A stretch of 64,000 bases of DNA from Pelagomonas calceolata (GCA_918797485.1 CAKKNE010000002.1:62001-126000), one strand, 5' to 3'. Positions 1 to 50,880 are shown, numbered from the stretch's first letter. Notes: generated from the sequence alone by a model not told the origin. Numbers and translations: made by a program.

Positions 1-572
1 AGCGAACTTGCCCGTGTGCCGGAGAGCAGCATGACAGTATCATCTGTTGCGCTGCCACAGACGTGGACCATCGTGGAGCCGTAGCGCGTTGAGATTTGAC
101 GATGCTCGCAGTGGCTCAGTCGCGCCTCAACAAATCCATCATATATATCGAGGTATTGCTTCCACTCGGCGCCAGTATGCCACGGTATTTTTGATATCAA
201 CAGCGGTGTCAACAGTTTAAACACAGTGTATTGATCTACGGTCGCCATTGCAACGACAATCCCAGCAGCAAAGTAATAAAGATGCTTGAGTGACAATGGG
301 CGCGTATTTGACTTATGACTTTCACGTTTCTTATAGTAATTGCCGCTACCGACAAGAGCATATTTAGCACAGTCAATGATCAACTTTGGAATCCGCACCA
401 TGCGGTCGAGCACGGTGCCGAGACCGCCAAGGTAGTGGCAATAAGTAGTTTGTGGCAAAGTGGTGCCCCTTCGCGTGGTCTCGGAGGCGCAGCTATTGCC
501 GGAGCTCTGGGAAATTTCGGATTCCGAGGCGACTCGTGAGGCCGCCTCCATCTTTTTGGAGCGAGGGGCCAT
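1..572 (-). CDS. Alpha/beta-hydrolase-like protein with shared N-terminal leader (3' end runs off the window)
   Basis: Manual translation from ATG at 572 is open to position 1: MAPRSKKMEAASRVASES...TTYCHYLGGLGTVLDRMVRIPKLIID..., a hydrophobic stretch (LYYFAAGIVVAMA), then ISTRYGSTMVHVCGSATDDTVMLLSGTRASS, resembling the first strands of alpha/beta hydrolases. Not in the ORF track because it has no stop in the window. Confidence 0.55.
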   Translation of the reverse strand, partial: MAPRSKKMEAASRVASESEISQSSGNSCASETTRRGTTLPQTTYCHYLGGLGTVLDRMVRIPKLIIDCAKYALVGSGNYYKKRESHKSNTRPLSLKHLYYFAAGIVVAMATVDQYTVFKLLTPLLISKIPWHTGAEWKQYLDIYDGFVEARLSHCEHRQISTRYGSTMVHVCGSATDDTVMLLSGTRASS

Positions 573-770
573 GATTTGATGGTGGTTGCAATGCTGCGGC
601 CGGTGCTGGCAACGCGGAAAACCTGGAGGCGCGGCTTAGTGGCGCTGCGCGGCGTCGCGCGTGGCGAAACTCGACAAGTCTACTTCCGAGCCGAGCTTGG
701 GTTCCTCGAGGGGACTCCATTGTTCCCTTGTTGGATACCTACGGTACCTACGGTACCGTAGGTACCTGCT
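372..770 (-). repeat. Copy 1 of shared promoter/5'-leader cassette
   Basis: Aligns with 3403-3830 and, inverted, with 50530-50880 (shared caatggagtccc(c)tcgagga..ccaagc..ggctcggaagtagactt and YC(H/Q)YLG.L...L.R..RIPKL). Confidence 0.85.
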
Positions 771-1760
771 ATGATATGGCCACAGGCTCGCTGCAAGATA
801 CTTTCTTATACTTGCTCGTGTCCCATAGCGCTCCGATTGTGAGAGCGCAGGACAAAGGAGCAAGAATTTTTGGAGTGGGGGTTGGTTGTGTTGCTATTAG
901 GTTGTTGAACTTCTTTGATGGCTGAGCAGCCCCAGGATACGTGGCCCATATCATAGCATTCACTAGACCTATTTTATCCGGGTATTCAAGTAACTAGGAT
1001 ACTAGTGAAGCTAAGATAAAAGTTGGGAGATTTATGCCAGTGAGTGGAAACTTGAAGAGGCCGTTACCACTGCCACAACGGACGCCAACCCCGTATCTCA
1101 GTAGCAGTATCTGGCCACCGCCTCTCACTCCGAGTCCTAACTATTATCATGATCATCCTGGGTCACTTTTATTGACGGACGTATTTCCGGTCGCAAACCC
1201 CATCAAACATGGGAGAAACTATTTCGTTAGGCGACTACACTACCGTGACGCTGCTGCCGGGGAAGACCGGAATTACACACTCTATTTCCGAGTCCCCCGG
1301 GCCCTGCATCGCAGAACAGGAACAGCCACGGGCCCACCTGGACGCCCGCATGCAGCTGCTCTGGTGCATAACAGTTCACCAGCAACGTGGGCAAAGTCTT
1401 CTTAGTATGATTACCTACGATTACCTAGTAGCAAGCTTCGGAAAAACACCAGTCGCAAGGCTGGGCCGCTGCCGCCGGACGTCACCGAGCATAACTTATT
1501 TTTAGCAATGGTGGCGCACTCATGATTAGCCTGCTCGGAGCTGGCCCGGATTACAGCGTGATGCTCTGTGTTGACAATTCTACAGATGTAGCTACGATGT
1601 GGCCCAGTACATGCATGGTCGATTGAGTGATTGTCACCGCTTTTTGATTTACTCACTCACTACTACTCATATGTTAGCTGTTTGTAAGATACTTCGAGTA
1701 ATGATGGGAACTTGGACTTTACGCTCTGCCGCATGCGTATTCGAGAAAAAGCTCCTGTCG

Positions 1761-3602
1761 CTAGATACGAGAAAGGTACGCATCCAGTCTCTGTTCGTAC
1801 TCTTGGTAACTTCCTGGAAATAAAGAAAAGTTCCGACCGGTGCCATTTGTGTACCATGATTTGCATGCAGTCAATTCTATTGGACTCTTTTCTACAATCC
1901 ACTTTGAGAATTCGTCGTACCAAGCGTCCGGAATAGAGGCCTGCTTGTTCAGTAACTTTACTATGGCACGCGATTGTATTTCCATGGCGAGCGTGATTGA
2001 TTGTGCTTTGCTGCCGGTGTTCGGTCCGACTAGGAAAAAACAATCCGGCAAATTCTTAATGCAAATACCAAAGAAGTTCTTGTAAATATCGACCTCCAGA
2101 CCCATGGAGGCGAAGCGGGGAGAAAGGTCTGTGTCAAACCCTGTAGCCATAATGACAAAATCATAGAAATGTGACTGGCCATTGATTTCTACGGTAGCAC
2201 CATTTTTGCCTTCCTTCACGCTCGCAACTCGACCTTTTACATATTTCACAGATGCTGGATTATGATATACCGTGTTGAAGAAGTCATAATCCATTATTGT
2301 ACGGGTGCCTTGCACGGAGTGTGTCGGAATCAATGAATCGAGACCTGTCATTTGGTAGCAAGCTCTCGTGTATTTTGACAGAATTTCAAGGCCAGTGCCA
2401 GTTTGCATACTCTCAGCAAAATTTGCGCCATTTTTTTTGCTCCATGCGCGTAGTATGATCGAGCCCAGGGGCAAAAATTGCATGAGAAAGTCCAAAAGAG
2501 GCTTGACGGGGTTCTCTATGGACGTACCGGGCCCAAACCACTGGCCCCGGGGTGCACACAACGTCACAGATCTGGCGCCAAATTGTTTCATGAGGGGACC
2601 AACCATCTGTGTCCCCGAACATGCCGCTCCAACGATAAACACATTTTTACCTTTCAGAGATCGGCTATGGGCCTCGGTCATCGCCGATGCGTGAATAACG
2701 TGCTGGGATTCGGAGCTAATCATCTTCGGGATGGTGAGTGGTCCCATCGCAAATATAACATAGTCGTAATGTTCATGATAACCACAAGCAGACGATGTAC
2801 TTTTCAACAAAACGTCGTACCCTCCGGCTGTCTGCTGAGTAAGTTTTTGTACTTCGCAGTTGAAGCGCGTTAGCCTTTCCAGACCGGCATATCTGGCAAA
2901 TGCCTGAGCGTACCATCTTGAAGTGCTACGCAGGCTGTAGCTGTGTGCGCAACAACGCAAGCGAAAATGAACAAACCATTTTGAAAACAAGTAAGATGAT
3001 GTTGCAACGTCACTCTTACACCCAGGATAATCGTTTGCATTCCACGTGCCGCCGTAGGCAGATGTCTTTTCTACGATTGTTGGCGTGTATCCATTCGCTA
3101 GTAATTCCACCGCACATCTGATGCCAGAGAGTCCGCCACCCACAATCAAAATTTTTTCTGCGTGCTGCTTGGAGCGACGCAGCGGAAACATAAGCATGTT
3201 TAGAAATACTATCGAGTGATGTGCTACAACGAAGTACAGCAACCACAACCATGGCACACCAAAGTACATGACGCTAGCGAACAAAAAACTCATCCATAGG
3301 AGGTGTGGAACCATTGAGATGAAGCCAGCTATTGTTCTAATTATTAAGACTTTTTGACGAGGCCCAGGCTTGAGCATTACATCGCTCATTGATTTGGCGC
3401 TATCGATGAGCAGTTTCGGAATGCGCGCCACGCGATCGAGCTTGGTGACGAGACTGCCCAGGTACTGGCAATAAGTAGTTTCGGGCGACGTGGTCTCCTT
3501 CCGCGTGGTCTTGGAGGTGTTATTGACGGAGCTCGGGGTCGGCGCGACGAATTCCGTTGCGACTTGCGAGGCCGTCCCCATCTTTTTGGAGCGCGGGACC
3601 AT
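1761..3602 (-). CDS. Membrane-anchored flavin-dependent (Baeyer-Villiger/FMO-type) monooxygenase
   Basis: Intronless ORF, first ATG at 3602. FAD motif IVGGGLSG, GGTWNANDYPGCKSD, second dinucleotide motif IVGAACSG and ATGF. Hydrophobic N-terminal helices follow the shared leader. Confidence 0.9.
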   Translation of the reverse strand: MVPRSKKMGTASQVATEFVAPTPSSVNNTSKTTRKETTSPETTYCQYLGSLVTKLDRVARIPKLLIDSAKSMSDVMLKPGPRQKVLIIRTIAGFISMVPHLLWMSFLFASVMYFGVPWLWLLYFVVAHHSIVFLNMLMFPLRRSKQHAEKILIVGGGLSGIRCAVELLANGYTPTIVEKTSAYGGTWNANDYPGCKSDVATSSYLFSKWFVHFRLRCCAHSYSLRSTSRWYAQAFARYAGLERLTRFNCEVQKLTQQTAGGYDVLLKSTSSACGYHEHYDYVIFAMGPLTIPKMISSESQHVIHASAMTEAHSRSLKGKNVFIVGAACSGTQMVGPLMKQFGARSVTLCAPRGQWFGPGTSIENPVKPLLDFLMQFLPLGSIILRAWSKKNGANFAESMQTGTGLEILSKYTRACYQMTGLDSLIPTHSVQGTRTIMDYDFFNTVYHNPASVKYVKGRVASVKEGKNGATVEINGQSHFYDFVIMATGFDTDLSPRFASMGLEVDIYKNFFGICIKNLPDCFFLVGPNTGSKAQSITLAMEIQSRAIVKLLNKQASIPDAWYDEFSKWIVEKSPIELTACKSWYTNGTGRNFSLFPGSYQEYEQRLDAYLSRI

Positions 3603-3830
3603 GTTTGGTGGTGCCTGCAATGGTGCGGCCGGTGCGGGGAACGCGGAAACCCGCGGGCGTGGCGCAGTGGCGCTGCGCGGCGTCGCGCGTGTTGAAACTC
3701 GACAAGTCTACTTCCGAGCCGGGCTTGGTTCCTCGAGGGGACTCCATTGTGCCCTTGCTGATACAAGTCCTACCTTGGGTACTGGTACCTACTGCGGTAC
3801 GGTACAGTAACTTCGGTACCTACGGTACAC
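3403..3830 (-). repeat. Copy 2 of shared promoter/5'-leader cassette
   Basis: Near-colinear with 372-770, including the GGTACC-rich upstream tract. Confidence 0.85.
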
Positions 3831-4182
3831 ACGAGCGTACATCTATACTTATGAAGGGCTGTTGAGTCAACTGGGATACTAGTTGGCTTTTTTATAGGTA
3901 TCTGTCATAATGGTTACTTACCTTTCAAGTTCAAGTTGGCCTTCCAAACGCAGGGGCCGGGGCACATTACTACTGCCCTAGCTCAGGGTTATTGAAAGTA
4001 ATTGCTACCCCGCATATCGATTAAACAAGGAGGCGGCCGTTACATATTCGCATGGTCGATATACCATACCAACTTTCAGCCTGCCAGCACAGCTCACGTG
4101 CTCCGCCAGCAGTTTTACGCTACCGGTGCAAAAAGACATCACCGACAGCCAAAGCATTGCAACAGAACGCAAACCAAGCACC

Positions 4183-5805: not shown

Positions 5806-8800
5806 ATGGAGCCAGAGGCCGCACAGGACAGCGACGCGCCCGTCGCGCGCTGTCCGGACGCGCCCATCGAATCGACGGCGCCGCTGTAGTTGCCCTTACG
5901 CTGGCCGCTCGGCCAGTTCCCGCCGGGACGTCAAGTAGTTTCGGCGCCCTTTGAAGGCGACGTAAAAGCCTTATAGTTAATTATTAATGTGGACAAAGAA
6001 GCCAAGAATCCTGACTCCGAAGACGGACTGTGCGCGATTGAAAGTATGGCAAAGAATTTTATATTTCACGCGCGAAATTCCAGTCTATGCCTGTCGCAAA
6101 TAAATGACAGGAATAACGTTGAATTTTAGGAGCTTCCCTGGTCGTGGGAAATATTGGAGCCAAGCTCTCAAGCACCTCGCAAAGGATTGACAATCAAGAA
6201 CGAAACAAATGGTGACCTGCTTCACGACGAAATATTCCTAAATATATGGACTGAATTCTTCGCCGACGTGCCGCCGGTCGACGCTCCGTTGCTAACCACC
6301 GGACTCAATTCCGCGCAACTGCCAATGCTTGCAGTCCGTCTTAGTCAAACTTTTTCGGTCAATGTATCGAGTATGTTCCTACTGGAGCACCCGACGATTC
6401 GCCAAATAGCGAACGCGTTGGAAGATCTACTCTCAGATTCGCCCAAGACATCTGATGCTCCGCATGTCTCTGTTGCGCAGACAGAGTCTCAAAAGAATGT
6501 ATCTCTGGGAAATATCGTATTTCACGCGCCTGGTTCGATGCGGACACCGGCCAGTTTTCGGTTCTCGGTAGAACGCGGCTTGAATTTTGGCTCGCGCGTG
6601 CCGCTGAATCGATGGGACGTGTCGAATACAACTCGCGCCTCGGCGACGTACGGAAACTTTGCCGAGGATATACTCACTCTCCCGCACGGCGATTGGAAGA
6701 TGTCCAAGTCTGAACTACGAAATGTGAATCCGGTACAACTGCTCTTGCTCGAGGCATCACATTCTATGTTTGCTGGACGTCACAAAGCTGACAAAAACGT
6801 GGGCATATTCGTTGGACTCTTCACGAGCTTGCTGACGCCCGGTAGTTCTACCGCCGCCCCGTCGCGGGAACCGCTCGGCATCTACGAAGGCACCGCCAAC
6901 TCTACGTCGATAGCTTCTGGCCGTATCTCGTACGTGCTGGGCTTTACGGGTCCGTGTCTCCCTGTCGATACAGCATGTTCCGCGTCGCTAGTGGCGACTC
7001 ATTTGGCCGCGACCTCACTGCGGCAAAACGAGTGCAGCAGCGCGGGCGTCGTGGCGGGCGGCATTCTCGAAACAGGCTTGCACGCCGCATTTAGCACAGC
7101 TGGTATGCTCTCCGAAACTGGACGATGTCATTCCTTCGATGGTCGTGCGGATGGATATTCCCGCGGCGAGGGTTGCGTGGGCTTCGTGTGCGATACGTCT
7201 GAAGACGGCCCATCGTTAAGAGGCAGTGCTGTCAAGCAAGACGGACCAAGCGCGAGTCTGACAGCACCGAATGGTGCCTCTCAGCGGATGCTCCTTCAGA
7301 GAGTTTCTGAAAGCATAGGAGCCGGGCACGACGTAGTAGCTCTCGAAGCTCACGGCACTGGCACAACGCTCGGAGACCCGGTCGAAATTGGCGCAGCGAG
7401 TGCCGCACTTCGTGGCTCAACAGTCGCGTGCACGTCGATCAAAGGGAACATTGGGCATCTCGAGGCGGCCGCCGCAGTCATCGGTTTGAATTCGTTGCTC
7501 CTATTTCCTCTGTCTTCTATGTTGAATGCTCCTCTCTGCACCTTGCGAAGTATCAATTCGCATCTCAAGTCTCTGAACTTGAACGCGTTTTACTTCTTGA
7601 CAGGACTGGCAAACTTATAGACCTCGGCAAAGAGTCCGGCAAGTTGTGGGCGATTGAGCTCGTTTGGTTATAGCGGAACTATTGCGCACGGGGCACTCGA
7701 AACTTGCAGGTCGGAGTGTAGGACATTTATTCGATCGGCCAAGTCGCTCTACCGTAGCAGGCACATTGTCGCTCCGCGAGCTGAAGTGCCAACGCGGCTG
7801 ACTTGGCTCGCAGAAAAACCGAATAATTTCAGTTCCCCGGTCAATGACACGGTAGTCTTTTCAGGAGTACTCACACCGTCGGCCGAACTGCTCTTCTCGG
7901 ACCACGTCGTCGGGGGAAACATCCTTTTCCCGGGCGTCGGGTACGTGGAAGTGGCGTTCGCCGCTAATCTCGATCGAGCTTCGGTTCTGACTGCTGCCGC
8001 ATTTGTGAGGCCATGCATGCTGCCAAACCCTCGCTTACGAACCTCGAAGCGGTGCGAGTTGCGATGTACGCGACGGGAGACGGGAGGTATTGAGATAGCT
8101 AGTCGGGTCACGGGCTCATCCACAGAAACCAGTTTTGCCTCATGCTTTGTTGGAACTCTCGCGAGCTGTGATGATGCCTCTGGGGTCAAAGCAGCTGCAA
8201 ATCCCTTCATGAAGAGGGAATACGTTGCTTTGGCCAACCAGGATATTGATGCATCTCCTTCTACATGCGCCTCGCTATCAGATGCAGTGCGCTCGTTACT
8301 GCCCTGCTGGCTTCAATGCTCAAAGCTCTCTGAGATCACCAACTTGATAGGCTCGAAGCAGGTTGTTTCTATGTGCGCATCAATGGTCAAGGGGTCTAAT
8401 TGGTGTCGCGGTGGGAGAGCTATCGTTGAGAAGCTCTTGATGCGTTTGGGACTAACCGATTCTGGATCTCGTTCAACGCAGCAGAACAGCAAGTCTCAAG
8501 CATACTTGGACAAACGCAGGGCATTACGACTTTGCAATCCTCTGCAGTCACACGCTTTACCATAGTGGAGCACGAACCCGGCTAATCCACCCCCGATTTG
8601 CAGAAACGGTTTGACACGGAGGTCCACGTGCTTCCAAGATATTGCTCTCACGAGGCCGGGACGGTCAAGACCTTTGGAGCCGCGTTCCATCAACAATGAT
8701 TTCCAACGCAAATAGAACATAGTACGAACTATTTCCGATCACAAATCAGCTGTCCAAATCTAGCGTACTCGTTCGCGTGACAGCCTACTCCAAGAGCTGA

Positions 8801-11800
8801 CCCGCATTGCCTCAGATATCATCGGCACAAAAGTCCCTATTGACTCTCCCTTGATGTCTGTTGGCCTCGACTCTATTGCTGTAACGGATTTTTCGACGCG
8901 AGTGAGTGAACATCTAGACCAGGAGCTTCCTTAGACTCTTGTCTTTGACCACCCGACGCTGCGGTCGATTGCTGACGCTCTGCTAATAAATGATGGCGAG
9001 CCGTAGCCTGTAATGGAAAATATCGAGCCAGTCGCCGTTTAGCAGAGGAGGGAAGCATCTATGGTATCCCACAGAACCATGCAAAATGCGTCTGCCGTCA
9101 TTGACACTACCTCAGCGGCGGTATTGGAGGTTTTAGGGACCAAAGTCACGGTAGATACGCCCCTCATGTCGGCAGGGCTAGATTCAATCGCAGTGACCGA
9201 TTTGGTGAACGTGCTATCTAAGCGTTTTGAGATAGAATTGCCGCCGACGCTCCTGTTCGACCATCCGACAATCGGATCTGTGGCGACTCATATTACCACA
9301 TTATTACCGATGGAAATATCAAAAGAGTCCGTGGTCGAAACGCGAGAAGGAACTTTGACTCCAGCCATAGCAGGCGCAATAGTGGCTCATCCGGCTGCTC
9401 CGCAAGATCAAGTATTCCTTTCATCGCATCGAATGCGCTTTACGTTACCAGGCGCATGTTGTGATGCACTTGGGCTCAGAGAACTTGGTCTTCGAGCGTG
9501 GTCAACTAACTCTCACTGGCCTATCTCACGTTTAGCGGGAATTGAAAGTCCAACGTCGACAGCTGCCTACGGGTCCTTCCTGGCACCCGATGCGTTTGCG
9601 TCGGACGCGGCGTTCTTCGGAATTTCCAGGACGGAGGCTCGGGCTATGGATCCGATGGCGATGCTGGTGCTCGAGACTACCTACGGTGCACTCAGCTCTA
9701 CCTCTCGCGCCGACCTCGCAAACAAGCCTATTGGTTTTTTCCTTGGGTCGTGTGGATGGACAGGAGGTCAAGAAAATGCGTCAAAAATTCCGAAGGCAAC
9801 GTCGGTGTATTCAGGGACCTCCGGCGCGCTGTCCGTGCTGTCCGGTCGCCTCTCGTACACGCTGGGCCTGACGGGCCCGTGCCAGACGACCGACACGGCC
9901 TGCTCGTCGTCGCTGGTTGCCGCGCACCAGGCGGTCTCGGCCCTGAAGCTCGGCGAGAGCCCGGCGGCGGCGGTCGCGGGCGTCGGCGTGCTGACAGTGT
10001 CGGTGTCGGTGGCGTTCTCGGCAGCGGGCATGCTCTCGGCGCTCGGGCGCTGCCACACGTTCGACCGGCGCGCCGACGGGTACTGTAGGGGCGAAGGCTG
10101 CGGGGCGTTCTACTTCTCGACCGAAGCCGACGACGTCGCGGTGTCCGGGACGGCGGTGCAGCAGGACGGGCCGAGCGCGAGCCTCACGGCGCCGAACGGC
10201 ACGTCGCAGCAGCGGCTCATCGAAGCGGTCAAGGCTGGAAGTGGACCATCGCTGGAGGCTCACGGCACGGGCACGGCGCTCGGGGACCCAATCGAGGTAT
10301 GTGCTTACTTCTTATTTCTCTGATAATTTTTGCGTCATTGTAGGTGGGCGCTGCGACGCGGGCGTTGTGCAAGTCGACAGAACATGGTGCCGCAGTGATC
10401 CAGTGCACGTCGCTGAAGTCGAACGTGGGCCACCTGGAGCCGGCGGCAGCGGCAGCGGGCCTGGCGTCGCTTGTTGTGGGGCCGCTGATGGATTCGGTTG
10501 TTGCTGTTAACGCGCAATTGCGCGGGTACGTCTCCTGTGTTTTTTACATAGTTGTCGCTCACATTCTTATGTAGGCTGAACGCGCACCTGTCGTCTATCG
10601 TGTCGTCGAAGCCGTTCCAGATGCCTGTTGACGTAGCTCCACGTACCACAGCTCTCAGCGGTTCGCGACTGAGCTCGTTTGGATTTAGTGGAACCATCGC
10701 CCACGGCGCGTTCAAGCTCGGAAGACAACGCGTATCAATGAGCAATGATTCGAAGTCGCTCTACCGTGGTCGCCGATTTATCACCTCTAGCGAGACGACA
10801 CGGCTGGACTGGCTGCTCGAAGCGCCTGGGCCGCAGGAGCCTCGACCGGACGAGGCCCGTCGTGTTCGGGGCGCTGTCGCCCTCGGCGGAAGCCCTCTTC
10901 TCGCATCACGTTGTCGGTGACACGATTATATTGCCGGGCGTCGGGTACGTCGAGATGGCGTTCGCCGCCAGCTCCAGTCGAGCGCTCACGCCGCGCGTTC
11001 CTGAGGCCGTGCGTGCTGCCCGAGCCTGGTCGAGGCGAGAAGTGCGTGCTGCGATGTACGCGGCGTAGTGGCGCATTGGAGATTGCGAGCGCGAGAGGCA
11101 CTGATTCATCTAGCTTTGCCCGACCGCCGGGACACTCGCGCATAATATTATTGAGAGTGGCGGTCACGCAGAGACAGTAATAGGTCGGAGCTTCAAAGCC
11201 CGTAAGGAATGGTCCATCAAAGCACAGTCTTCACGACGCAATTCGGCGGTGCTGCAAGCTACTTTTGGCCCCAGACCCTATTGCTCGAATTGTCATCGCG
11301 ATCGGGCGGCACCGCGTGGACGTTCGGCGCCAGGAAATTCCTATGCAGTGCCAGCAGGCAATTAAGCCGCAGCACAAGTCTGGCAAATGTATCTGACTAC
11401 CGCAACGTCTTGTGTCAAGCGCGACAGCAATTGTGCAAATCTCTGCGCGGTACAATACTACCGAGGTCGCGCCTGCTTGCGTCTCGCGCACAGAACAACA
11501 AGTGGATTTATTCTTGCAATACCAGCGGTCTTAGACTTGCACAAGTAGAGGCCTCCAGCTTCCGAGAAATGCTCCTGGTTACGGTCGGACCGTCCAAGCC
11601 CCTGTCTGCTGGAAGAGTCCCGCAGCCTACACCGAGCAAACTGCAGAGCAACCTAAGGCTCAAGGAGCCAGCCGCAGCCAAGGGCGGCGCTCGCTCGCAA
11701 AAGGCCCTGCTAGAGGAACTCACCGCCATGGCCGCCGAGGTCACCGGCACAACTATTTCCGCCGATGCGCCCCTTATGTCTGCTGGGCTCGACTCCATCG

Positions 11801-20800: not shown

Positions 20801-21630
20801 ACATTAGTAAACCCACACTGGTAGTTCTCCATGCTCTATTTGGCATGCAAGTGGGTTCTCCTTATCTGCCTTGTTTTCCAGACGATATGCCGGTGGTGGC
20901 ACTTCAGGCCCCTGAACTAATTGAACACACTGTCATTGGTAGCATTCGTGAGCGTGCCATATATTACCGCAACATCCTGATTTCTCTGTTAGATGGACGC
21001 AAGCCAATCGTTCATATTTTCGGGTTGTCCTTTGGGGGACCTTTGGCCTTTGAACTAGCTATTTCTCTACAACATAGTCCGCTGAACTGCGGATCCCTAT
21101 GTTTGTCCGACCCCCCTCCCTTTTGCCTGCCCTCTAAGTCCACAACAAGCACGTTGACAATGAGAGCTCGATTCTACGATTTCTGCTTCGCAGTTGCAAT
21201 TTCCAAACAGACAAACTTTCAAGGTGGGGTCTAGGTTAAGGACATAAAATGCCCGGCTGATCTTGAAAGACTCGTCTTTTCGGCAGCTCCTGAATCTCTT
21301 GCAAGGGAATTTTCGCAGATAGTTGACTTCATGCTGAAGGCTGGAAGCGAACTCCAAACACTAGATTGCTCTGCAAATCGCGAGAAGTACACAGGCCCAT
21401 GTGCCTTCCTGAAGACAGGGGAAGGCGTTTAGTATTTTAAGGAGAGAGGATTTGTGGAAAGTACGGAAGACCCAGATGGGCTTTATGGATGGAGTCGCGC
21501 CCTTTGCAGCCCTCCATTAAAAGTGGTCAGCCTTGCCTGTGGTCACAATTACATGACAACTCATGCAGATTCAGTTGCCAAGATAGCGTCGACTATTCTC
21601 ATGCTGTATCAAATTGTCTCAGACGACTAA
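5806..21630 (+). other. PKS assembly line A: ACP(GLNS)-KS1-DH*-ACP-ACP-[KS-DH*-ACP-ACP]x3-KS5-ACP-ST-TE
   Basis: KS at ~6500, 9420, 12340, 15290, 18240. ST at 20014-20650 ([16 protein letters not shown]...EDLCLMPF, CurM-like). TE at 20788-21600 (GLSFGG; LACGH). TAA at 21628 may or may not terminate. Confidence 0.85.
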
Positions 21631-39600: not shown

Positions 39601-42600
39601 GCCGGGTCCCTACGACATGACTGGTATCACCTACTCGGCGGCCGGCGCGCGCCTGTCGTACGTGTTCGCGATGCGCGGCCCGTGCATGGTGTTTGACACG
39701 GCCTGCTCGTCGAGCCTGATCGCCATGCATGCCGCGAGGCGTAGCATGCAACATAACGAGTGCCCACTCGCTCTTACTATTGGGCCGAACGCAATACTGC
39801 ACCCCAGCGCTCACGTGGGCCCGGCGCTGACGGGCATGACGTCGATTCGCGGACGGTGCCACACCTTTGACGCGCGAGCGGACGGCTACCTGCGTGGCGA
39901 AGGCTGTGGGGCGGTGGTGCTCGAGACTGAGCAACGTGGCAACCATGTCTCGTGTCTAGGCTCGTCGGCCCGGCACAACGGACAGAGCGCGACGTTCACG
40001 GCACTAAACGGGCTATCACAGCAGCTGTTGATCAAGGCCGCGCTGAGCGATGCCTCGACCACGATAGGAACCGTGATGGAAGCCCACGGCACCGGAACAG
40101 GCCTCGGTGATCCGATCGAGATCAGTTCAATCTCGGCGATCGTCAAGAAGAGTGGCCACAAGTCCTGCTCCGTCTGCGCCATAAAGGGGAACGTCGGCCA
40201 TACGGAGTCGACCGCCGGCGTGGCGAACGTCATCGAAGTGATCGGGTTGCTGAAGCTAGGAGAGATGGCGCTCAACGTGCAGCTCCGCACGCTTAACCCA
40301 CAAGTCCGGCAAGTGCGCGCCGAGGTACTGCATTCCTCGGTCGATACCAATCCGATGTACAGGGGTAAAACGCAGACGGGCGGCGCGAGTTCCTTTGGGT
40401 GGAGCGGCATCATCGCCCACGGGGTGTTCCGGTACGAGAGATCTGGCACAACCAAGTCGGAGGAACGTACCCTCGCGAGTGCTTCGCTCTATCGGAACAG
40501 TTTGCACCTTGTGCGTCGTTCTGATGACGGGCCCTCGCGGCTGAGGTGGCTTGCGGTTACACCAGAGGTGCGTCAGTCACTGACCAACGATGCGGTCATT
40601 TTCTCGGGCGCTCTTGCACCCGCGACAGTAGCTTTCCTCTCGCATCACGTCGTTGGCGGTAGCATTCTACTTCCAGGCGTCAGTTTCATCGAGATGGCAT
40701 TTGCTGCCAGTCCTGGCCATGCTAGTCTCACAGCAATCGCTTACCTGAGACCGTGCTCGCTTCCAAGTCCCACAGACAGATCCGGTGAACGGTGCGTGCT
40801 GCGATGTATGCAACGCGGCGCCGCGCTTGAGATTGCGAGCCAGAGAATTGGGGCAAAATAGGAACCAGGACCATTTGCGGCAAATTTTGTCGGGACTCTT
40901 GCTAGCCAAAGGACGGTAGATACTACAACGGAGCGTCTTCATTCGTCCCGCACGCATCGCATACCTGCGCCCCAGCCCTACTCTGGCAGCGGCTTGATCA
41001 ATTTGGGTGTGGCAAGGCAGCACCTTGTTGGAAGCGCACGATTCATCAGTATGAGGAGGTCACATTATTCAGGTCATCAGATGACCCGTTGTGGCCACGC
41101 ACGTGCTGCCTGGGACAAAGCTCCGAAACAACCTCGACGGCGCCTCGGAAGATCTTGCAAGGTCCCACTGATGTGCGTGCCTCAAGCGTGGAGCACCAAG
41201 CCGGCCTACCCTCGCTCAGTATGCGATCAGGGTGGTCTAGCCAGCTTCCCTGCGAGCTTCCAGGACTTAGCTCTGGTAACTGCAGGAACGCGTAAGGCCC
41301 CATTGCGAACCACTCAGAGGAAGCAAGCTCGCCCCACAGCTACGTTGCGAAGTGTAAATAAGCGCAAGGTGGCTCGCAGTACCCGGTCGAGCGCCACCTT
41401 GCTGAACGAACTAAAACATATCGCTTCCGAGGTCATCAACAAGGACGTCTCCGTCGACGCGCCCCTTATGGAGGCAGGGCTCGACTCCATTAGTGGTACA
41501 GAACTCTCAAACAAGATAAGCGCTCATCTTAACACAGAGCTTTCCCCGACCCTGCTTTTCGATCACCCGTCGCTGCGGTCCATCGCTGATGCTTTGTCGC
41601 TGACCTCTGGCTCGTCACCAACGCAAGGGCCCGAGCCTGAGTAGGAAGTGCCAGCGCAACTTACTGTGGCGCGAGAGGTCCCGAAAAGAGCGATCTCGCA
41701 GACATCAGGGAACGCCGTACAGAGCATAGCTGGTATTGTCAAAAGCTTGCAGACTACCCTGTTGGGAATTGTAGGAAAGACCGTGGCGGCAGACGCGCCG
41801 CTCCTGTCGGCCGGCCTGGATTCGATCTCCGGGACAGAGTTTACAAACACATTGGCCCAGCAATTCGAGATAGAGCTGCCGCCGACGCTGATGTTCGACT
41901 ATCCAACAATTGACTCGATGGCAGGCTTCATCGCGGAGGCGGTGCCAACAATGACGCTAGTCGAAGCGGTGACGGAGTAAAATGAGCTTATGCTAAAATC
42001 AGACGACGAGGCTCCAAAAGATGTCTGGGATCTGTACTCGGAACTGAAGCATGAAAAGACAGATAAATCGTTCGTGCCAACAGCGGCAAAATCTGCGAGA
42101 CAAGCTGCTGTTTTGTTCAGTTTCACAGGTTCTGGCTCTAAACACCTTATATCGTGCCTCGGTGCTCACCAGCATTTGTGCGTTTGCGAAGACCTCTGTC
42201 TCATGCCATTCAAAACCGTAGTCGAGCGGAACGAGGTCCTATCTTCCAGGAAAGACAACCTCCAAGATGGGTTGGTTGACACCGTTACGACTCTGCGTAA
42301 TTGCAAAATGCCCGATATATGTCACCTCTTTGGTACGGTGGCAAGCACATATCGTGCACTACAAGAATGGTGTGCCCCTCGAATTTTAGTCGACGGAACA
42401 GAAGTCTACTCTGCCGTGCCCCAGTGGTCTTTGACCGAAGTGAACAATGTCTTCCTAGACCCAGACATTGTGCACTTGCTTCGAAATCCAAGAGAGTGCT
42501 TTGGCGAAGCTCAAGTGTCATGTGATATGGTAGAACTCTAGCAACAGTGGGTGAAATTCACGAAATACATGCTGTAACTTGAAGGGACAGACGTCTTGGA

Positions 42601-43768
42601 AATCAGATACGAGGACCTCAAATCGGCAGTCCGTGCGATAACTTCATGCCTTTCAATCCCTGCTTATGATTTGGTTCTGGATGATGCTCAGTATGAAACG
42701 GGAAATATATACGACGGGCCACTCCAAGGTGACACCTGTGCTATTACTTGGCGCCTTGGCTACAGCCTATCACGAGATAACATGAGAAAATATAGTTTTG
42801 TAAATCCAAAAGCAATACAGGGAGTTGTTCTCTGGCGACGCAAAGGTGACCCATCGAAACCAGTCGTGGTATTTCTTAATGGGGTCTCGGGATTGGCGGG
42901 GGGGGGGGAGCTTCAGTCTCAGCTCCCGGACGATGTGCCAATGATTTCAATTCAAGCACCTGACTTGACTACCAACGTTTCCATGAAAAACATCACGGAA
43001 CGCGCCGCCTATTACTTAAGATGTCTTGTTGTTGAATTACATGGTCGCTACCCGTCTATCCTCCTTGTTGGTTATTCTGGTGGTGGCCCGCTGGCATTCG
43101 AAATTGCCCTGCAAGCAAAGACCAGCTCATTGAAATGTAAAATATGCATGGTTGACCCAGCCCCTTATTGTCCTATGAACAATATCGGATAGAGCTATTT
43201 GATGCAACGCGCGCAGAATTACGACCTTTTCTTCGGGTTCCTACTTCGCAAACAGACAAGCTTCAGGCAAGCAGTTTCCCTGAACGATATATCCAGCGTT
43301 GGCCAGCTCGAACAAAATGTACTGTTAGCCGCCCCATCTGAGCATCTTGCTTGCGAGCTTTCAAGCATCGTCGACACTGCAATAAAACAAACTATGGAGA
43401 TTGCGGCTCGCGATCTTTCTCCTGATCGGTAATATCTTGGTCCATGTGCACTCTTGAAAGCTGACCCCGATTATTTCATTGGAGGTGGGATGAGTGAAGA
43501 TGACGTTCACCACCCCGACGGAGTCTACGGATGGAGTCTTCCCCTCAGCTGCCCTGGCATGAAAGCGATACCACTTTCGTGTGACCATCTGAACATTTTC
43601 AAGGATGGCGAGGCCTTGAGCCAAGTGACAGCGACAATCCTATCTTTACTTAATACGGAATCGATCGGTGAACCACGGCCTCAGAATTCTGACCCTGAAC
43701 TACACAGTGCCGAGCAAGTCAACATCTTGCCAAACATCATCACCAAGTACTAGAAGCGGTCTGATTGA
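5806..43768 (+). CDS. Giant AT-less modular type I PKS locus (12 KS, ~23 ACP, DH-like domains, 2x ST-TE); continuous frame only if TAG/TAA are read as sense; otherwise a pseudogene or two genes
   Basis: ATG 5806 is in frame with all downstream ORF fragments once introns are removed. KS triads DTACS/DAACA/DVACA, EAHGTGT and GHLE/GHTE are intact; ACP motif GLDS; DH motif HVVG..ILxPGVGY. About 48 in-frame TAR codons; first in-frame TGA at 43766-43768. Confidence 0.75.
9815..19470 (+). repeat. Tandem array of ~2.95-kb near-identical PKS module (about 3.3 copies)
   Basis: Homologous intron donors at 10297, 13233, 16180 and 19129 (spacing 2936, 2947, 2949); translated ORFs on both strands recur almost verbatim. 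Confidence 0.97.
10297..37434 (+). other. 16 short GT-AG introns at two fixed positions in KS2-5 and KS8-11
   Basis: GDPIE|VGAA introns: 10297-10343, 13233-13279, 16180-16226, 19129-19178, 28615-28665, 31110-31155, 33841-33886, 37154-37202. QLRG|LN introns: 10526-10574, 13462-13510, 16409-16457, 19361-19409, 28842-28906, 31326-31373, 34057-34104, 37385-37434. Splicing restores KS motifs. Confidence 0.93.
21631..43768 (+). other. PKS assembly line B: ACP(GLNS)-KS6-DH*-ACP2-KS7-ACP-KS8-ACP-KS9-ACP2-KS10-DH*-ACP2-KS11-DH*-ACP2-KS12-DH*-ACP2-ST-TE
   Basis: KS at ~22450, 25350, 27720, 30210, 32940, 36250, 39200. ST at 41990-42700. TE at 42830-43650 (GYSGGG; LSCDH). Confidence 0.85.
21903..23910 (+). 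repeat. Duplicate of 5953-7960 (loading ACP-KS region)
   Basis: ORFs 6154..7620 and 22102..23571 are nearly identical, and the upstream sequence gtaaaagccttatagttaattattaatgtgg is shared. Confidence 0.95.
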
Positions 43769-46907: not shown

Positions 46908-46929
46908 GAGAAGTCGATATGCGAGCCAT

Positions 46930-46988
46930 CCGCGCCCATGACGCGCGGCAGGGACATGTCTAGTTCCTGCCGTGCCGACCTGCGCCGG
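46930..46988 (+). promoter_or_regulatory. SECIS element candidate
   Basis: gcgc-cc-ATGAC-gcgcggcaggga-catgtctag-ttcctgccgtgc-CGAC-ct-gcgc: AUGA/GA non-Watson-Crick core, ~12-bp helix II and helix I, ~25 nt after the stop. Confidence 0.8.
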
Positions 46989-47037
46989 TAGCTTGTGGCG
47001 ACGTGTGTTGTTGTGATATCGCGTCTAGTACCAATAA

Positions 47038-48664: not shown

Positions 48665-49011
48665 TGCTCTGTGTGCTGCTGCAGCGTAGACCGTTTCAGG
48701 CTTGGTCTCCGCTCTCCGGTAGGCCTCGTCAGGTATTGATCAGTTTAGAGCACTGCTCGCAATTCTCGCACGGGACTGGAGGCAGTAGAGGCTGAGCTGA
48801 GAGCGATGCAATTTGCTCTCTGCTGAAAGCAAAGAGGCACACCGATCGAACGACGGAGTGCGCGCGCTGCACCTGACTCCTTGAAGCAGCAGCCGACGCG
48901 AGGCACGCGTAACGGCAGCCTGCACCGCTGCAGCTATTTATTGGAGGAGGAGGCACCCACTGCAGCAGAGCAGCAAGCGCACGAAGCGTGCAACAGAAAC
49001 TGAGACGAAGA

Positions 49012-49695: not shown

Positions 49696-49711
49696 GAACA
49701 ATATGCTGTGT

Positions 49712-50203
49712 TTACTTACGCGACCTCTTTTTCTTCTTCTCCTTTTTGCTCTTCTTTTTTTCTTTCTTGCGAGCCTTCTTCGCGCGCTTGCGCTCGCGGC
49801 GCTCGTCTCGCCGCCGCGCCGCCTCGTCGTCGGCGCGCCGCCGTTTGGCTGCGCGCGCCGCATCGTCGTCGTCGTCGTCGGACGAGGAGCCCGAGCTCGA
49901 CGACGACTCGACCGGCGCCATCTCGTAGCCGCGCGGCGGTGCCTTGCGCTTGAGGCCCCAGAAGAGACTCTGCGCGAAGTTGTCGCCGCGGCTGCTGCCG
50001 CCCTGCTTGATAGCGTCGAGGCGCGCCAGCTCCATGACGCCGCGCGCGCGCTCCTCCTGGCGCTCGCGCGCCGCCGCGTCCTCGGCGGCCTCGGCGTCGC
50101 CGGCGTGCGGGTCGTGGCCGATGGTCTTGGACCAGATGTCGTTCGTCTGCAGCGTCGTGCTCGTCATCATGCGGTTGCCGCCGCCGGCGCGGCGGGAGTC
50201 CAT
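49712..50203 (-). CDS. CAX-interacting protein 4-like basic nuclear protein
   Basis: N-terminus NRMMTSTTLQTNDIWSKTIGHDP resembles plant CXIP4 (NRVHSSAALQTHGIWQSAIGYDP); Ser/Asp tract and Lys-rich tail. Confidence 0.65.
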   Translation of the reverse strand: MDSRRAGGGNRMMTSTTLQTNDIWSKTIGHDPHAGDAEAAEDAAARERQEERARGVMELARLDAIKQGGSSRGDNFAQSLFWGLKRKAPPRGYEMAPVESSSSSGSSSDDDDDDAARAAKRRRADDEAARRRDERRERKRAKKARKKEKKKSKKEKKKKRSRK

Positions 50204-50529
50204 TTTATGGGTGCTTAGCTGTGTTAGGAATAAGGGTGGCGTCCTTATATGTGGTAAAAAAAGGCGGTCCACACAAGTAATATAAATATCTATCTAACTG
50301 CGCAGCGCCAAGCGGCGTACGTTGCTTTGCTGTGCAACATCGGGAGGCCTTAGGCTCATTCGCAATAAATCGGGTTTTGCCGGTTTAGCATCGTGCACGG
50401 GTCGCTGCTATACCATTGTACCTAATAAAAAGGCTTACCGCACATCTTGCAGCTTGATAGCTATACAAGCTCGTATATATACGTATACCAGTAGGGCTTA
50501 CTTGTGATACCGCAGTACATACCAAGTTA

Positions 50530-50880
50530 AAACCAAGGGTACAATGGAGTCCCCTCGAGGAGCCCAAGCTACTCGGCTCGGAAGTAGACTTTACGATCTG
50601 CACCGCGCACGACGCCGCAGCGCCAATACGCCGCGCTCGCGAGTTTACACCTTCTCTAGACCGCCACAAGACCACCAAAGATGGTCCGGCGCTCCAAGGA
50701 GATGGGGGCGGCCTCGCGAGTCGCCTCGGAATTCGCTCCGACACCGGCCCCGACATTGAGCACTAATGGGTCCTCCAAGGGCATACCAAAGGGCGCCGCG
50801 TCGCCAAATACCAACTACTGCCAGTACCTGGGTAGTCTCGTCACCGCGCTCTACCGCGCGGCGCGGATTCCGAAACTGAT
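50530..50880 (+). repeat. Copy 3 of shared promoter/5'-leader cassette
   Basis: caagggtacaatggagtcccctcgaggagcccaagc...ggctcggaagtagactt and encoded MVRRSKEMGAASRVASEF...YCQYLGSLVTALYRAARIPKL. Confidence 0.85.

What the first reader, a model, noticed from the sequence alone, without database searches (positions are those of the whole stretch)
372..50880. A portable promoter plus ~60-aa leader cassette is grafted on three unrelated enzymes flanking the PKS
Seen: a ~350-400-bp element (372-770 minus, 3403-3830 minus, 50530-50880 plus) supplies the upstream region, ATG and first ~60 codons (M..RSK.M..AS.VA.E...YC(Q/H)YLG.L.T.L.R..RIPKL) of an alpha/beta hydrolase, a flavin monooxygenase and an Fe/2OG dioxygenase-like gene. 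Homology stops abruptly after RIPKL(xxD), the cassette is GC-rich while the gene bodies are AT-richer and intronless, and each has a TM segment next. Inference: a mobile expression/targeting module that domesticates acquired genes and co-regulates or co-localises PKS tailoring enzymes, i.e. a way to build a eukaryotic biosynthetic regulon.
Basis: partly seen in the sequence, partly recalled or inferred. Interest (0 to 1): 0.75.

Follow-up and report, generated by a model that had tools for sequence, protein, structure and literature searches.

The report
Shared leader cassette on algal enzymes
Three unrelated enzyme genes beside a giant polyketide synthase in a marine alga begin with the same ~350-base block (5' untranslated region plus the first ~65 codons); the block also heads at least ten enzyme families in related sequences and likely gives them common regulation and a common membrane address.

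Summary
Exactly three copies of a ~350-nt block lie in the window: A 740-381(-), B 3767-3411(-), C 50524-50878(+). They head an alpha/beta hydrolase, a class-B flavin monooxygenase and a weakly PhyH-like (Fe/2OG) protein. These genes flank a 37-kb AT-less modular PKS.

The "promoter" half is really the 5'UTR. Stranded RNA-seq puts the transcript start at the block's 5' edge. The alignable block is the 5'UTR plus a leader of 51-69 codons. The UTR carries a strong-context upstream ATG whose ORF overlaps the main ATG out of frame in 18 of 18 copies. Just upstream lies a non-alignable cluster of GGTACC-type motifs, about 17-fold enriched.

The leader is lineage-restricted (23 hits among 1.84 billion representatives). 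It sits on 10 body families, nearly always ahead of the enzyme's own membrane segment. Leader type is incongruent with the body tree (p-AU 1.8e-74), and silent divergence differs between leader and body. This points to exchange by recombination.

I found no transposon termini and no close donors for horizontal transfer. Function (co-regulation, targeting) is inferred. Verdict: new variant of a known kind; interest 0.65.

The parts
736..767 (-). Copy A: GGTACC-type motif cluster just upstream of the block (putative promoter element)
   Evidence: Three 9-nt-spaced TACC(T/G)(A/T)(C/A)GGTACC units form perfect palindromes. GGTACC occurs in the 64-kb window only here and upstream of copy B. The motif class is enriched about 17-fold upstream of 18 copies.
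573..740 (-). Copy A: conserved 5'UTR (predicted TSS ~740; upstream ATG at 720-718; its ORF runs to ~493)
   Evidence: Alignments; UTR profile hit 738-562; uORF of 75 aa ends 80 nt past the main ATG. The TSS of this copy was not resolved, because paralogous reads interfere.
381..572 (-). Copy A: leader, 64 codons (MAPRSKKM...RIPKL), type 1
1..380 (-). Gene A body: alpha/beta hydrolase, runs off the window
   Evidence: The full model on the same 6.14-Mb contig is P0080, 421 aa, with PF12697/PF00561. It is 65% identical to P0041.
3780..3830 (-). Copy B: GGTACC/GTACCG motif cluster upstream of the block
   Evidence: 8 GGTAC/GTACC matches in the 120 nt upstream.
3603..3767 (-). Copy B: conserved 5'UTR (upstream ATG 3747-3745; uORF to ~3520)
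   Evidence: RNA depth is 12-17.5 in 3601-3800 and 0 in 3801-4000 on the gene's strand (first mate on +) in 3 of 3 raw-read runs. UTR profile hit 3763-3592. uORF.
3411..3602 (-). Copy B: leader, 64 codons, type 1
1761..3410 (-). Gene B body: class-B flavin monooxygenase with hydrophobic segments at residues 85-122; no intron seen
   Evidence: Pfam PF13738, PF07992, PF00743 and others; hydropathy; continuous RNA coverage 1396-3800 with no splice joint.
50460..50523 (+). Copy C: upstream region with weaker GTAC/TACCGCAG motifs
   Evidence: 1 GGTAC/GTACC and 2 TACCG/CGGTA matches.
50524..50680 (+). Copy C: conserved 5'UTR (TSS ~50524-50550; upstream ATG 50544-50546; uORF to 50759)
   Evidence: Sense-strand reads are absent from 50250-50528 and first appear in bin 50529-50559 in 4 of 4 runs. 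Two independent contigs (L030, L033) begin 20 nt before the upstream ATG. uORF.
50681..50878 (+). Copy C: leader, 66 codons (MVRRSKEM...RIPKL), type 2
50879..51985 (+). Gene C body: single TM (residues ~84-102), then a weakly PhyH-like (Fe/2OG dioxygenase) domain
   Evidence: The AF2 model is too poor to use (pLDDT 41.6).
6154..43192 (+). Context: AT-less modular type I PKS (12 copies of a KS-coding repeat by D9/D12; DH and tandem ACP domains), with near-identical 2.9-kb module repeats

Best explanation
The three copies are a lineage-specific 5' gene module: a transcription start, a conserved 137-167-nt 5'UTR with an overlapping upstream ORF, and a ~65-aa N-terminal leader placed ahead of each enzyme's own membrane segment. 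The module heads unrelated enzyme bodies, was probably exchanged between them by recombination, and likely gives them shared control of expression and a shared membrane location.

Shown:
- The block starts where transcription starts.
- It is translated in frame into the bodies.
- It occurs on 10 enzyme families and almost nowhere else.
- Its type does not follow the body phylogeny.

Inferred:
- A clustered GGTACC-type motif upstream would be bound by a common transcription factor.
- The strong-context upstream ATG, about 20 nt from the 5' end, would gate translation of the main ORF.
- The leader consists of a basic, S/T/P-rich, likely disordered ~45 aa followed by a conserved amphipathic helix (YCQYLGSLVTKLDRVARIPKL). 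It would stay on the cytosolic face and act as a sorting or docking tag.
- That tag would bring oxygenases, hydrolases, desaturase/hydroxylase-like enzymes, a methyltransferase and a glycosyltransferase to one membrane site, plausibly to tailor lipid or polyketide products such as that of the neighbouring PKS.
For: Three copies only in the window.

TSS at the block edge:
- Copy C: sense reads are 0 in 50250-50528 and begin in 50529-50559 in 4/4 runs. Wrong-strand leakage is <1%, judged from neighbouring bins.
- Copy B: depth 12-17.5 in 3601-3800 against 0 in 3801-4000 in 3/3 runs.
- Contigs L030 and L033 start 20 nt before the upstream ATG.

Translation of the leader:
- The leader reads in frame into the body in all 3 window copies and all 15 unique metagenome copies that have a leader, although leader length varies from 51 to 69 codons.
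- UTR lengths differ by non-multiples of 3.
- Leader dN/dS is 0.13-0.58.
- P0005 lacks the downstream Met that the window's own short model P0004 starts from.

Distribution:
- 23 of 1.84e9 representatives hit at E<=1e-3.
- 53 leader proteins with >=80 aa of body fall into 10 body families.
- Pfam names include FMO, Abhydrolase, FA_hydroxylase, Methyltransf_11 and Caps_synth/Gly_transf_sug, plus weak PhyH, Cupin_8 and Lipid_desat hits.
- The leaderless hydrolase homolog P0091 starts directly with the TM.

Exchange:
- Type-2 leaders sit in two separate clades of the PhyH-like body tree. Monophyly is rejected at p-AU 1.8e-74.
- UTR indel type co-varies with leader type.
- Leader dS is 0.155/0.375/0.275 against body dS 0.569/1.25/0.745 in cupin-family pairs. 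The reverse holds in winB-L017 (0.34 against 0.154).
- Window leaders differ equally at codon positions 1, 2 and 3, so general nucleotide constraint does not explain the low dS.

Promoter motif: GGTAC/GTACC occurs 55 times in 2160 nt upstream (16 of 18 copies), i.e. 25.5/kb, against 1.45/kb in bodies and 1.6/kb window-wide.

uORF: it overlaps the main ATG out of frame in 18/18 copies, in the context ACAATGG.

Amphipathic helix: muH 0.55-0.60, reached by 0.05-1.2% of shuffles.
Against: - No experiment or localisation data; function is inferred.
- Leaders A and B in one genome are only 58% identical in protein, so homogenisation is episodic, not continuous.
- dS on ~64 codons is noisy.
- The database proteins and metagenome contigs are of unknown strain or species, so orthologs and paralogs cannot be separated.
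- The AU group was defined after I had seen the sequences.
- The 17-nt search pattern forces the upstream ATG to be present in all metagenome copies.
- An open uORF frame is not rare in GC-rich sequence: frame 1 is also stop-free in 14/18 copies.
- The hydrolase body tree splits cleanly by leader type, which is compatible with plain vertical descent there.
- The PKS itself has no copy of the block or motif cluster. Housekeeping-type genes (VDE, PolyA_pol) lie between the cassette genes and the PKS.
- Sense expression of C is low and is swamped by an antisense RNA.
Confidence: 0.55

Rival explanations
1. The conserved thing is mainly nucleic acid, not peptide. The block would be a translational or transcriptional control element (TSS-proximal site, overlapping uORF, 5' coding ramp). 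The leader peptide would be a tolerated by-product with no targeting or docking role.
For: - The UTR is more conserved than the leader CDS (85/78/80% against 71/70/77%).
- The first ~60 nt are nearly invariant.
- Codon positions are equally diverged in the window leaders.
- L004 and L020 lost the first ATG yet keep the nucleotides.
- L003 carries the UTR with an unrelated 75-aa ORF and no leader.
- The middle of the leader is low-complexity, and leader dN/dS reaches 0.58.
Against: - The helix YCQYLGSL..RIPKL is conserved as protein across 10 families and in distant members such as P0066 and P0068.
- The frame is kept through length changes.
- Leader dN/dS is below 1 in all 11 pairs.
- There is no RNA structure signal: z -0.56, -0.08, -0.09 and covariation term 0.02.
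Confidence: 0.15
2. A few ancient fusions followed by ordinary vertical descent and purifying selection. There would be no ongoing exchange, and the two leader types would be old paralogous lineages.
For: - The hydrolase tree splits cleanly into type 1 and type 2.
- A and B leaders in one genome are well diverged.
- winB-L020 leader and body dS are similar (0.278 against 0.335).
Against: - Type-2 rows are polyphyletic on the PhyH-like body tree, p-AU 1.8e-74.
- Leader and body dS are discordant in both directions.
- The leader of P0002 visibly resembles that of the unrelated cupin-family protein P0021 more than that of its closest body relative P0006 (sequences).
Confidence: 0.15
3. RNA-mediated origin. 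Chimeric retrocopies would have joined the 5' end of a donor mRNA to other mRNAs, which would explain why homology begins at the TSS and why the bodies lack introns.
For: - The block begins at the TSS.
- The bodies are single ORFs in the window and in all 20 metagenome loci with a body hit.
- No splice joints were seen in gene B.
Against: - A shared motif cluster lies upstream of the TSS in 16/18 copies, and a retrocopy would not carry it.
- I did not look systematically for poly(A) tracts or target-site duplications beyond.
- The leaderless homolog P0091 shows that the body and TM pre-existed.
Confidence: 0.08
4. Transposon-driven capture (Pack-MULE or Helitron type) carries the cassette around.
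For: Multiple dispersed copies with sharp edges.
Against: - No terminal inverted repeats or flanking direct repeats bracket any of the three copies. Only the local GGTACC palindromes were found.
- The edges coincide with functional landmarks (TSS, end of leader) rather than element ends.
- No transposase gene is nearby.
Confidence: 0.04

Closest known systems
Modular N-terminal leaders of oomycete CRN and RxLR effectors (recalled, not tested here)
   Same: A short, conserved, lineage-specific N-terminal module ends in a conserved motif. After it, unrelated C-terminal domains are attached. The modules are reshuffled by recombination.
   Different: Those leaders start with a cleavable signal peptide and serve secretion or host entry of effectors. 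Here there is no N-terminal hydrophobic core, the cargo is membrane-anchored metabolic enzymes, and the conserved unit also includes the 5'UTR and TSS.
Cytoplasmic tail-TM-stem (CTS) regions of Golgi type II glycosyltransferases and N-terminal ER-retention motifs (recalled)
   Same: An N-terminal basic cytosolic tail, followed by one membrane segment and then the catalytic domain. The tail decides the membrane address of a set of enzymes in one pathway.
   Different: CTS regions of different enzymes are not homologous at the DNA level and do not share UTRs. Here the tail is one homologous sequence of ~65 aa. Its topology and address are untested.
Cluster-specific transcription-factor motifs in fungal biosynthetic gene clusters (recalled; review PMC8038932 seen only in a search listing)
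   Same: A repeated short promoter motif shared by tailoring genes near a PKS suggests a regulon.
   Different: In fungi only the motif is shared. Here an alignable 5'UTR and leader travel with it, the PKS itself lacks the motif, and many family members may lie elsewhere in the genome.
Overlapping-uORF translational control (recalled)
   Same: A strong-context upstream ATG whose ORF ends after the main ATG, out of frame.
   Different: It is shared as a homologous unit by many genes. Its effect on translation is not measured. The upstream ATG lies only ~20 nt from the 5' end.
Pack-MULE or Helitron gene-fragment capture
   Same: Dispersed copies of a promoter and first-exon fragment fused to other genes.
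   Different: No element termini or duplications were found. The copies head intact, expressed, conserved enzyme genes.

Membership tests
Transposable element carrying captured gene fragments (Pack-MULE / Helitron) | Terminal inverted repeats or Helitron termini, with target-site duplication at the copy edges | tested here: not met
   The repeat finder on the three copies with 100-250 nt flanks found only local GGTACC palindromes and short chance repeats.
Transposable element carrying captured gene fragments (Pack-MULE / Helitron) | Copies mostly at non-genic or random sites | tested here: not met
   All 3 window copies and all 15 unique metagenome copies with a leader head an in-frame enzyme ORF. 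One more copy (L003) heads a short unrelated ORF.
Spliced-leader trans-splicing | The leader is encoded apart from the gene body and joined at the RNA level | tested here: not met
   Leader and body are contiguous in genomic DNA and in 20 metagenome loci. RNA reads show no joint at the leader/body border.
Cleavable signal peptide / bipartite plastid presequence | Hydrophobic core within the first ~30 residues | tested here: not met
   The first hydrophobic segment lies at residues 78-125 in 11 of 13 representatives, with none in the first 75. The first 45 aa are 56-67% S/T/P/G/A/N with net charge +2 to +4.
Type II (signal-anchor) membrane protein with a cytosolic N-terminal tail | N-terminal soluble tail followed by a membrane-spanning segment before the catalytic domain | tested here: met
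   Hydropathy. The leaderless homolog P0091 begins directly with the TM.
Type II (signal-anchor) membrane protein with a cytosolic N-terminal tail | N-in orientation and a defined organelle address | not testable with these tools
   Needs protease protection or GFP fusions. The charges flanking the TM of P0002 are ambiguous (sequence).
uORF-controlled mRNA | An upstream ATG inside the transcript, in good context, with an ORF overlapping or preceding the main start | tested here: met
   Context ACAATGG. The uORF overlaps the main ATG out of frame in 18/18 copies. Sense reads and two contig starts place the 5' end ~20 nt upstream. The presence of the ATG in the metagenome copies is forced by the search pattern.
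uORF-controlled mRNA | The uORF is translated and changes the output of the main ORF | not testable with these tools
   Needs ribosome profiling or reporter assays.
Structured cis-regulatory RNA (Rfam-type) | A conserved secondary structure with covariation, or a match to a known family | tested here: not met
   No Rfam match at E<=1. Covariation term 0.02, with invariant stems. Folding z-scores -0.56, -0.08, -0.09.
Biosynthetic gene cluster (PKS plus tailoring genes) | Physical clustering of tailoring-type enzymes with the core synthase | tested here: met
   A and B lie 2.5-6 kb before the 37-kb PKS and C lies 7.5 kb after it. However, VDE, PolyA_pol and other unrelated genes are interspersed.
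Biosynthetic gene cluster (PKS plus tailoring genes) | Co-expression and a shared product | not tested
There are no expression series and no chemistry.
Class B flavoprotein monooxygenase (gene B) | Pfam FMO-like / Pyr_redox_3 domains above the curated cut-off | tested here: met
   PF13738 at 44.1 bits (cut-off 30) and PF00743 at 27.8 bits (cut-off 22).
PhyH-type Fe(II)/2OG dioxygenase (gene C) | Pfam PF05721 above the gathering score, or a confident fold match | tested here: inconclusive
   P0002 itself has E 0.2. 11/14 family members match weakly, best 4.7e-5, all under 22 bits. Atlas feature score 0.95. AF2 pLDDT 41.6. No PDB profile hit.
Recently horizontally acquired gene bodies | Close homologs in a donor lineage, with atypical composition | tested here: inconclusive
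   Composition is atypical: GC3 0.47-0.50 against 0.81-0.91 in neighbouring housekeeping genes. The best non-family hits are only 24-27% (FMO) and 36% (hydrolase) identical. No viral relatives were found in one scan. Parts of the PKS also have GC3 0.44-0.57.

The most novel reading that the evidence does not exclude
The block is a self-homogenising 'recruitment cassette'. By ectopic recombination it places a TSS-proximal control region and a docking/sorting leader in front of any membrane-anchored enzyme. That would draft the enzyme into one regulon and one membrane-bound assembly that tailors the products of giant algal PKSs. It would be a eukaryotic way to build a biosynthetic pathway without tight clustering. 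It would also be a sequence tag that lists the long-sought tailoring enzymes of algal polyketides.
Probability: 0.25. Interest if true: 0.85.

Novelty: new variant of a known kind. Interest (0 to 1): 0.65.

Why it matters
The enzymes that tailor giant algal polyketides are largely unknown. The PKZILLA preprint (10.1101/2024.01.29.577497; Discussion passage seen) states that hydroxylases, epoxidases, glycosyltransferases and others are still missing and may not be clustered.

A short, lineage-specific 5' tag heads a coherent set of membrane-anchored enzymes, three of them next to a PKS: oxygenases, hydrolases, hydroxylase/desaturase-like enzymes, a methyltransferase and a glycosyltransferase. 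Such a tag would give a simple genome-wide handle for listing candidate tailoring enzymes.

It also offers a tractable case of three things:
- a promoter motif, 5'UTR and N-terminal peptide travelling as one evolutionary unit;
- gene conversion acting on only the 5' end of otherwise unrelated genes;
- possible uORF-gated control of a whole enzyme set.

Tried and rejected
- Transposon termini: none found.
- RNA family or structure: no Rfam hit, no covariation, ordinary folding energy.
- Structure of gene C: the AF2 model had pLDDT 41.6, so I ran no fold search. The PDB profile search gave only a chance hit at E 0.94.
- Viral origin of the PhyH-like body: one viral-contig scan found no relative.
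- The neighbouring Cupin_8 gene (47573-48664) is not a leaderless relative of the cupin-like leader family.
The queue was full and nothing was folded.
- An Atlas query with the leader alone failed twice.
- Earlier scan notes: none exist.
- Literature: searches listed nothing describing such a shared leader/UTR. One more search failed on a term format and was not repeated. Absence from print is therefore only weakly supported.
- 18 of the 41 metagenome loci matched the 17-mer pattern but had no further similarity at blastn E<=1e-5. I dropped them as chance matches.
- For the conservation profile, truncated copies L012 and L037 and the leaderless copy L003 were left out of the 21 unique aligned copies, leaving 18.
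Full report
**What is there**

Reading the three places and aligning them confirms the repeat. In each copy a block of about 350 nt runs from ...AAGGGNACAATGGAGTCCCCTCGAGGA... to ...ATTCC(G/A)AA(A/G)(C/T)TG (RIPKL). It is followed by sequence that no longer aligns.

Profiles built later find exactly three copies in the 64-kb window. The leader profile gives E 8e-40, 2e-38 and 1e-33, with the next best at 0.78. The UTR profile gives E 3.5e-48, 3e-44 and 7e-43, with the next at 0.18.

The three main ATGs are at 572(-), 3602(-) and 50681(+). They open:
- a 190-aa fragment that runs off the window (P0001);
- a 613-aa protein (P0003);
- a 434-aa protein (P0002).

**The three genes**

P0003 is a class-B flavoprotein monooxygenase by Pfam.

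P0001 is the start of a 421-aa alpha/beta hydrolase. Its full model, P0080, sits on the same 6.14-Mb contig. P0001 is 65% identical to a protein that JGI names a carboxylesterase.

P0002 has no Pfam hit of its own. However, 11 of 14 family members touch PF05721 (PhyH) below the curated cut-off, with best E 4.7e-5. The ESM Atlas feature search also puts PhyH first, at 0.95. The AlphaFold model was too poor to use (pLDDT 41.6), and a PDB profile search gave nothing.

**Context**

No prokaryotic genome is held for the window. The window carries:
- a violaxanthin de-epoxidase gene;
- CPSF100 and metallo-beta-lactamase domain ORFs;
- a Patched/SSD protein;
- a PolyA_pol-family gene;
- a 37-kb AT-less modular PKS (6154-43192, +), with a KS-coding repeat present in 12 copies, DH domains, tandem ACPs and near-identical 2.9-kb module repeats.

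Poly(A) RNA-seq runs of one coded organism and several seawater metatranscriptomes hold the DNA. The source is thus a marine photosynthetic eukaryote, which I leave unnamed.

Genes A and B lie in tandem 2.5-6 kb before the PKS, with the VDE gene in between. Gene C lies 7.5 kb after the PKS, with several unrelated genes in between.

**The upstream half is 5'UTR, not promoter**

The libraries are stranded, with the first mate opposite to the RNA. This shows in the 3'-biased coverage of gene B and in the opposite-strand coverage of the VDE gene on the + strand.

Gene B's transcript covers 1396-3800. Depth is 12-17.5 in 3601-3800 and 0 on that strand in 3801-4000 in 3 of 3 raw-read runs.

For gene C at 30-nt resolution, sense reads are absent from 50250-50528 and first appear in bin 50529-50559 in 4 of 4 runs. 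Neighbouring bins with 70-185x on one strand and 0 on the other put wrong-strand leakage below 1%.

Two independent metagenome-collection contigs (L030, L033) begin exactly 20 nt before the ATGGAG motif.

So transcription starts at the 5' edge of the alignable block. The 113-167 nt from the upstream ATG to the main ATG, plus ~20 nt before the upstream ATG, are 5'UTR.

**A real promoter signature lies just upstream**

The 120 nt before the block do not align (mean pairwise identity 0.48). They are nevertheless packed with GGTAC/GTACC-containing motifs such as TACCGTAGGTACC:
- 55 matches in 2160 nt from 18 unique upstream regions, with 16 of 18 having at least one. That is 25.5 per kb.
- Gene bodies have 1.45 per kb and the whole window 1.6 per kb.

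In the window the hexamer GGTACC occurs only upstream of A and B. A has three 9-nt-spaced palindromic units. Copy C has a weaker version. This is what a shared transcription-factor site cluster looks like. Binding is inferred.

**Anatomy of the UTR**

The first ~60 nt are almost invariant. 17 of them are invariant by construction, because I searched with them, but the flanking AAGGGNACA and CGGCTCGGAAGTAGACTT are not.

About 20 nt from the 5' end sits an ATG in a strong context (ACAATGG). In 18 of 18 unique copies its ORF stays open across the main ATG. It ends 17-188 nt beyond the main ATG and is always out of frame with it (frames 1 or 2, never 0). This holds although UTR length varies over 113-167 nt by non-multiples of three.

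The uORF peptide is not conserved, because a 1-nt indel in B shifts it. Any role would therefore be in cis.

There is no evidence for RNA structure: no Rfam hit, covariation term 0.02, and folding z-scores of -0.56, -0.08 and -0.09.

One contig, L003, has the UTR block followed at the usual ATG position by an unrelated 75-aa ORF without the leader. The UTR can therefore occur on its own.

**The leader**

It is 51-69 aa long up to IPKL. It has three parts:
- a basic start, M(A/V)(P/R)RSK(K/E)MGAASRVASEF;
- a variable S/T/P-rich middle. The first 45 aa are 56-67% S/T/P/G/A/N with net charge +2 to +4;
- a conserved stretch, TTYCQYLGSLVTKLDRVARIPKL(I/V)(V/I)(E/D)SAK. This is amphipathic (muH 0.55-0.60, reached by 0.05-1.2% of shuffles) and helical in the otherwise poor model (H46-61).

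There is no hydrophobic core in the first 75 residues. The first membrane-type segment comes at residues 78-125 in 11 of 13 representatives.

A leaderless hydrolase homolog from elsewhere (P0091, 36% identity) starts directly with that membrane segment. The leader is therefore an addition in front of a pre-existing anchor, not the anchor itself.

Evidence that the leader is translated:
- It reads in frame into the body in all 3 window copies and all 15 unique metagenome copies that have it, despite the length variation.
- Leader dN/dS is 0.13-0.58 in 11 pairs.
- P0005 lacks the internal Met from which the window's own short gene model (P0004, 368 aa) starts.

**Distribution**

A profile of the three leaders, run against 1.84 billion cluster representatives, finds only 23 proteins at E<=1e-3. 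One of these (P0070) is a spurious repeat protein.

Together with the word-based search, 53 leader proteins with at least 80 aa of body fall into 10 body families:
- PhyH-like (19);
- alpha/beta hydrolase (12);
- a ~467-aa family with a weak Cupin_8 hit (10);
- FMO (4);
- fatty-acid hydroxylase (3);
- five singletons: a SAM methyltransferase, a Caps_synth/DXD glycosyltransferase fragment, a protein with a weak Lipid_desat hit, and two unknowns.

A pattern scan of metagenome contigs gave 41 loci. 23 of them carry the block, which makes 15 unique leader-bearing copies after removing duplicates and two truncated copies. Each is followed by a single continuous ORF of one of five of these families.

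The module is thus lineage-restricted. It marks a coherent set of membrane-anchored oxidative, hydrolytic and transferase enzymes.

**Evolution of the module**

Two module types exist. They differ in both the UTR (3-nt and 10-nt indels) and the leader (MAPRSKKM...VAPTPSSVN against MVRRSKE(I/M)G...APTPAPTLST). Both occur in this one window: A and B are type 1 and C is type 2.

On the PhyH-like body tree, type-2 rows fall in two well-supported separate clades. Forcing them together costs 230 log-likelihood units (p-AU 1.8e-74). Two caveats apply: I defined the group after seeing the sequences, and the strains are unknown. The hydrolase tree, by contrast, splits cleanly by type.

Silent divergence of the leader and the body disagree in both directions:
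- In cupin-family pairs, leader dS is 0.155, 0.375 and 0.275 against body dS 0.569, 1.25 and 0.745. UTR identity there is 90-92%.
- In the FMO pair winB-L017 the leader is the more diverged part (dS 0.34 against 0.154; dN 0.10 against 0.039).

The window's own three leaders differ equally at codon positions 1, 2 and 3. A general nucleotide-level constraint therefore cannot explain the low dS.

Episodic replacement of the whole 5' module by ectopic recombination or gene conversion is the simplest reading. It would also explain the composition step: leader GC3 0.70-0.80 against body GC3 0.47-0.50. GC-biased conversion would produce this without any horizontal transfer.

**What is not supported**

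I found no terminal inverted repeats or flanking duplications, so a transposon vehicle is not shown.

Horizontal acquisition of the bodies has no donor:
- The best non-family relatives are 24-27% identical for the FMO and 36% for the hydrolase.
- The PhyH-like family has no relatives outside the leader clade in the word-based search.
- One viral scan found none either.

The word-based search is insensitive, so an ancient transfer cannot be excluded.

The PKS itself carries neither the block nor the motif cluster. Its link to the three genes rests on proximity and enzyme type only.

**Most likely mechanism, with what is inferred marked**

Shown:
- One homologous unit supplies the TSS-proximal region, the UTR and the N-terminal ~65 aa to unrelated enzymes.
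- It is transcribed and kept in frame with the bodies.

Inferred:
- A factor binding the GGTACC cluster co-transcribes the set.
- The overlapping uORF holds translation down until some condition allows bypass.
- The leader stays on the cytosolic side of the anchor, where its amphipathic helix acts as a sorting or docking tag that brings the enzymes to one membrane site.

I put 0.55 on this package. The main rival (0.15) is that the nucleic-acid element is what matters and the peptide is incidental. The in-silico test of leader self-association could not be run because the queue was full.

**Comparison with known systems**

The closest analogues I can name come from memory and were not tested here:
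- The modular N-terminal leaders of oomycete CRN and RxLR effectors, where a shared leader is recombined onto diverse C-termini.
- The cytoplasmic-tail/TM regions that sort Golgi type II enzymes.
- Cluster-specific promoter motifs in fungal gene clusters.

The present case differs from each in one or more ways:
- The shared unit spans the promoter-proximal sequence, the UTR and the peptide.
- The cargo is metabolic enzymes with their own anchors.
- There is no signal peptide.

Three literature searches listed no description of it. I rate it a new variant of a known kind.

Noticed in passing
window 50480-51150 and beyond, minus strand: An abundant polyadenylated antisense RNA covers gene C, including the whole cassette. 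Its depth is 100-480, against 0.5-34 for the sense strand. T-run loose ends mark a poly(A) site near 50480, about 45 nt upstream of the sense TSS. Its 5' origin (possibly the minus-strand ORF 52615-53604) was not mapped. Genes A and B show no such antisense RNA.
   Followed up: partly
L003:1481-1865 (metagenome contig): The conserved 5'UTR block, with the same upstream ATG and the same main-ATG position, is followed by an unrelated GC-rich 75-aa ORF with no leader peptide. This suggests the UTR part can be used on its own.
   Followed up: partly
window 785-863 and 1001-1400: RNA reads pile up on 785-863 (depth ~80-130). They carry two fixed differences (795 A>G, 806 T>C) and unmatched sequence on both sides, so they come from a similar sequence elsewhere. 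A separate plus-strand RNA covers 1001-1400 with many loose ends (1035, 1196, 1243). Neither is explained.
   Followed up: no
window 11388-19000: Three consecutive PKS modules are 100% identical over stretches of 300 nt and more (period 2947-2949 nt). Further copies at 9.7 kb and 36.6 kb are 64-99% identical across the repeat families. This indicates very recent module duplication or conversion inside the PKS.
   Followed up: no
window 50205-50345, minus strand: A minus-strand gene (ATG near 50205, many RNA 5' ends at 50342-50349) is transcribed divergently from gene C, with only ~180-200 bp between the two starts.
   Followed up: no
L004 and L020 (metagenome contigs), start of leader: The first ATG of the leader is mutated (CGTG, CACG), yet the following nucleotides are kept and the ORF starts at the second Met (MG(T)...ASRVA). 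Several database proteins (P0009, P0014, P0015) also start there, so the first seven residues seem dispensable.
   Followed up: partly
window 50681-51985 versus protein P0004: The collection's 368-aa model for gene C starts at Met67, just after the leader, and so omits the leader. Relatives such as P0005 have no Met there.
   Followed up: yes
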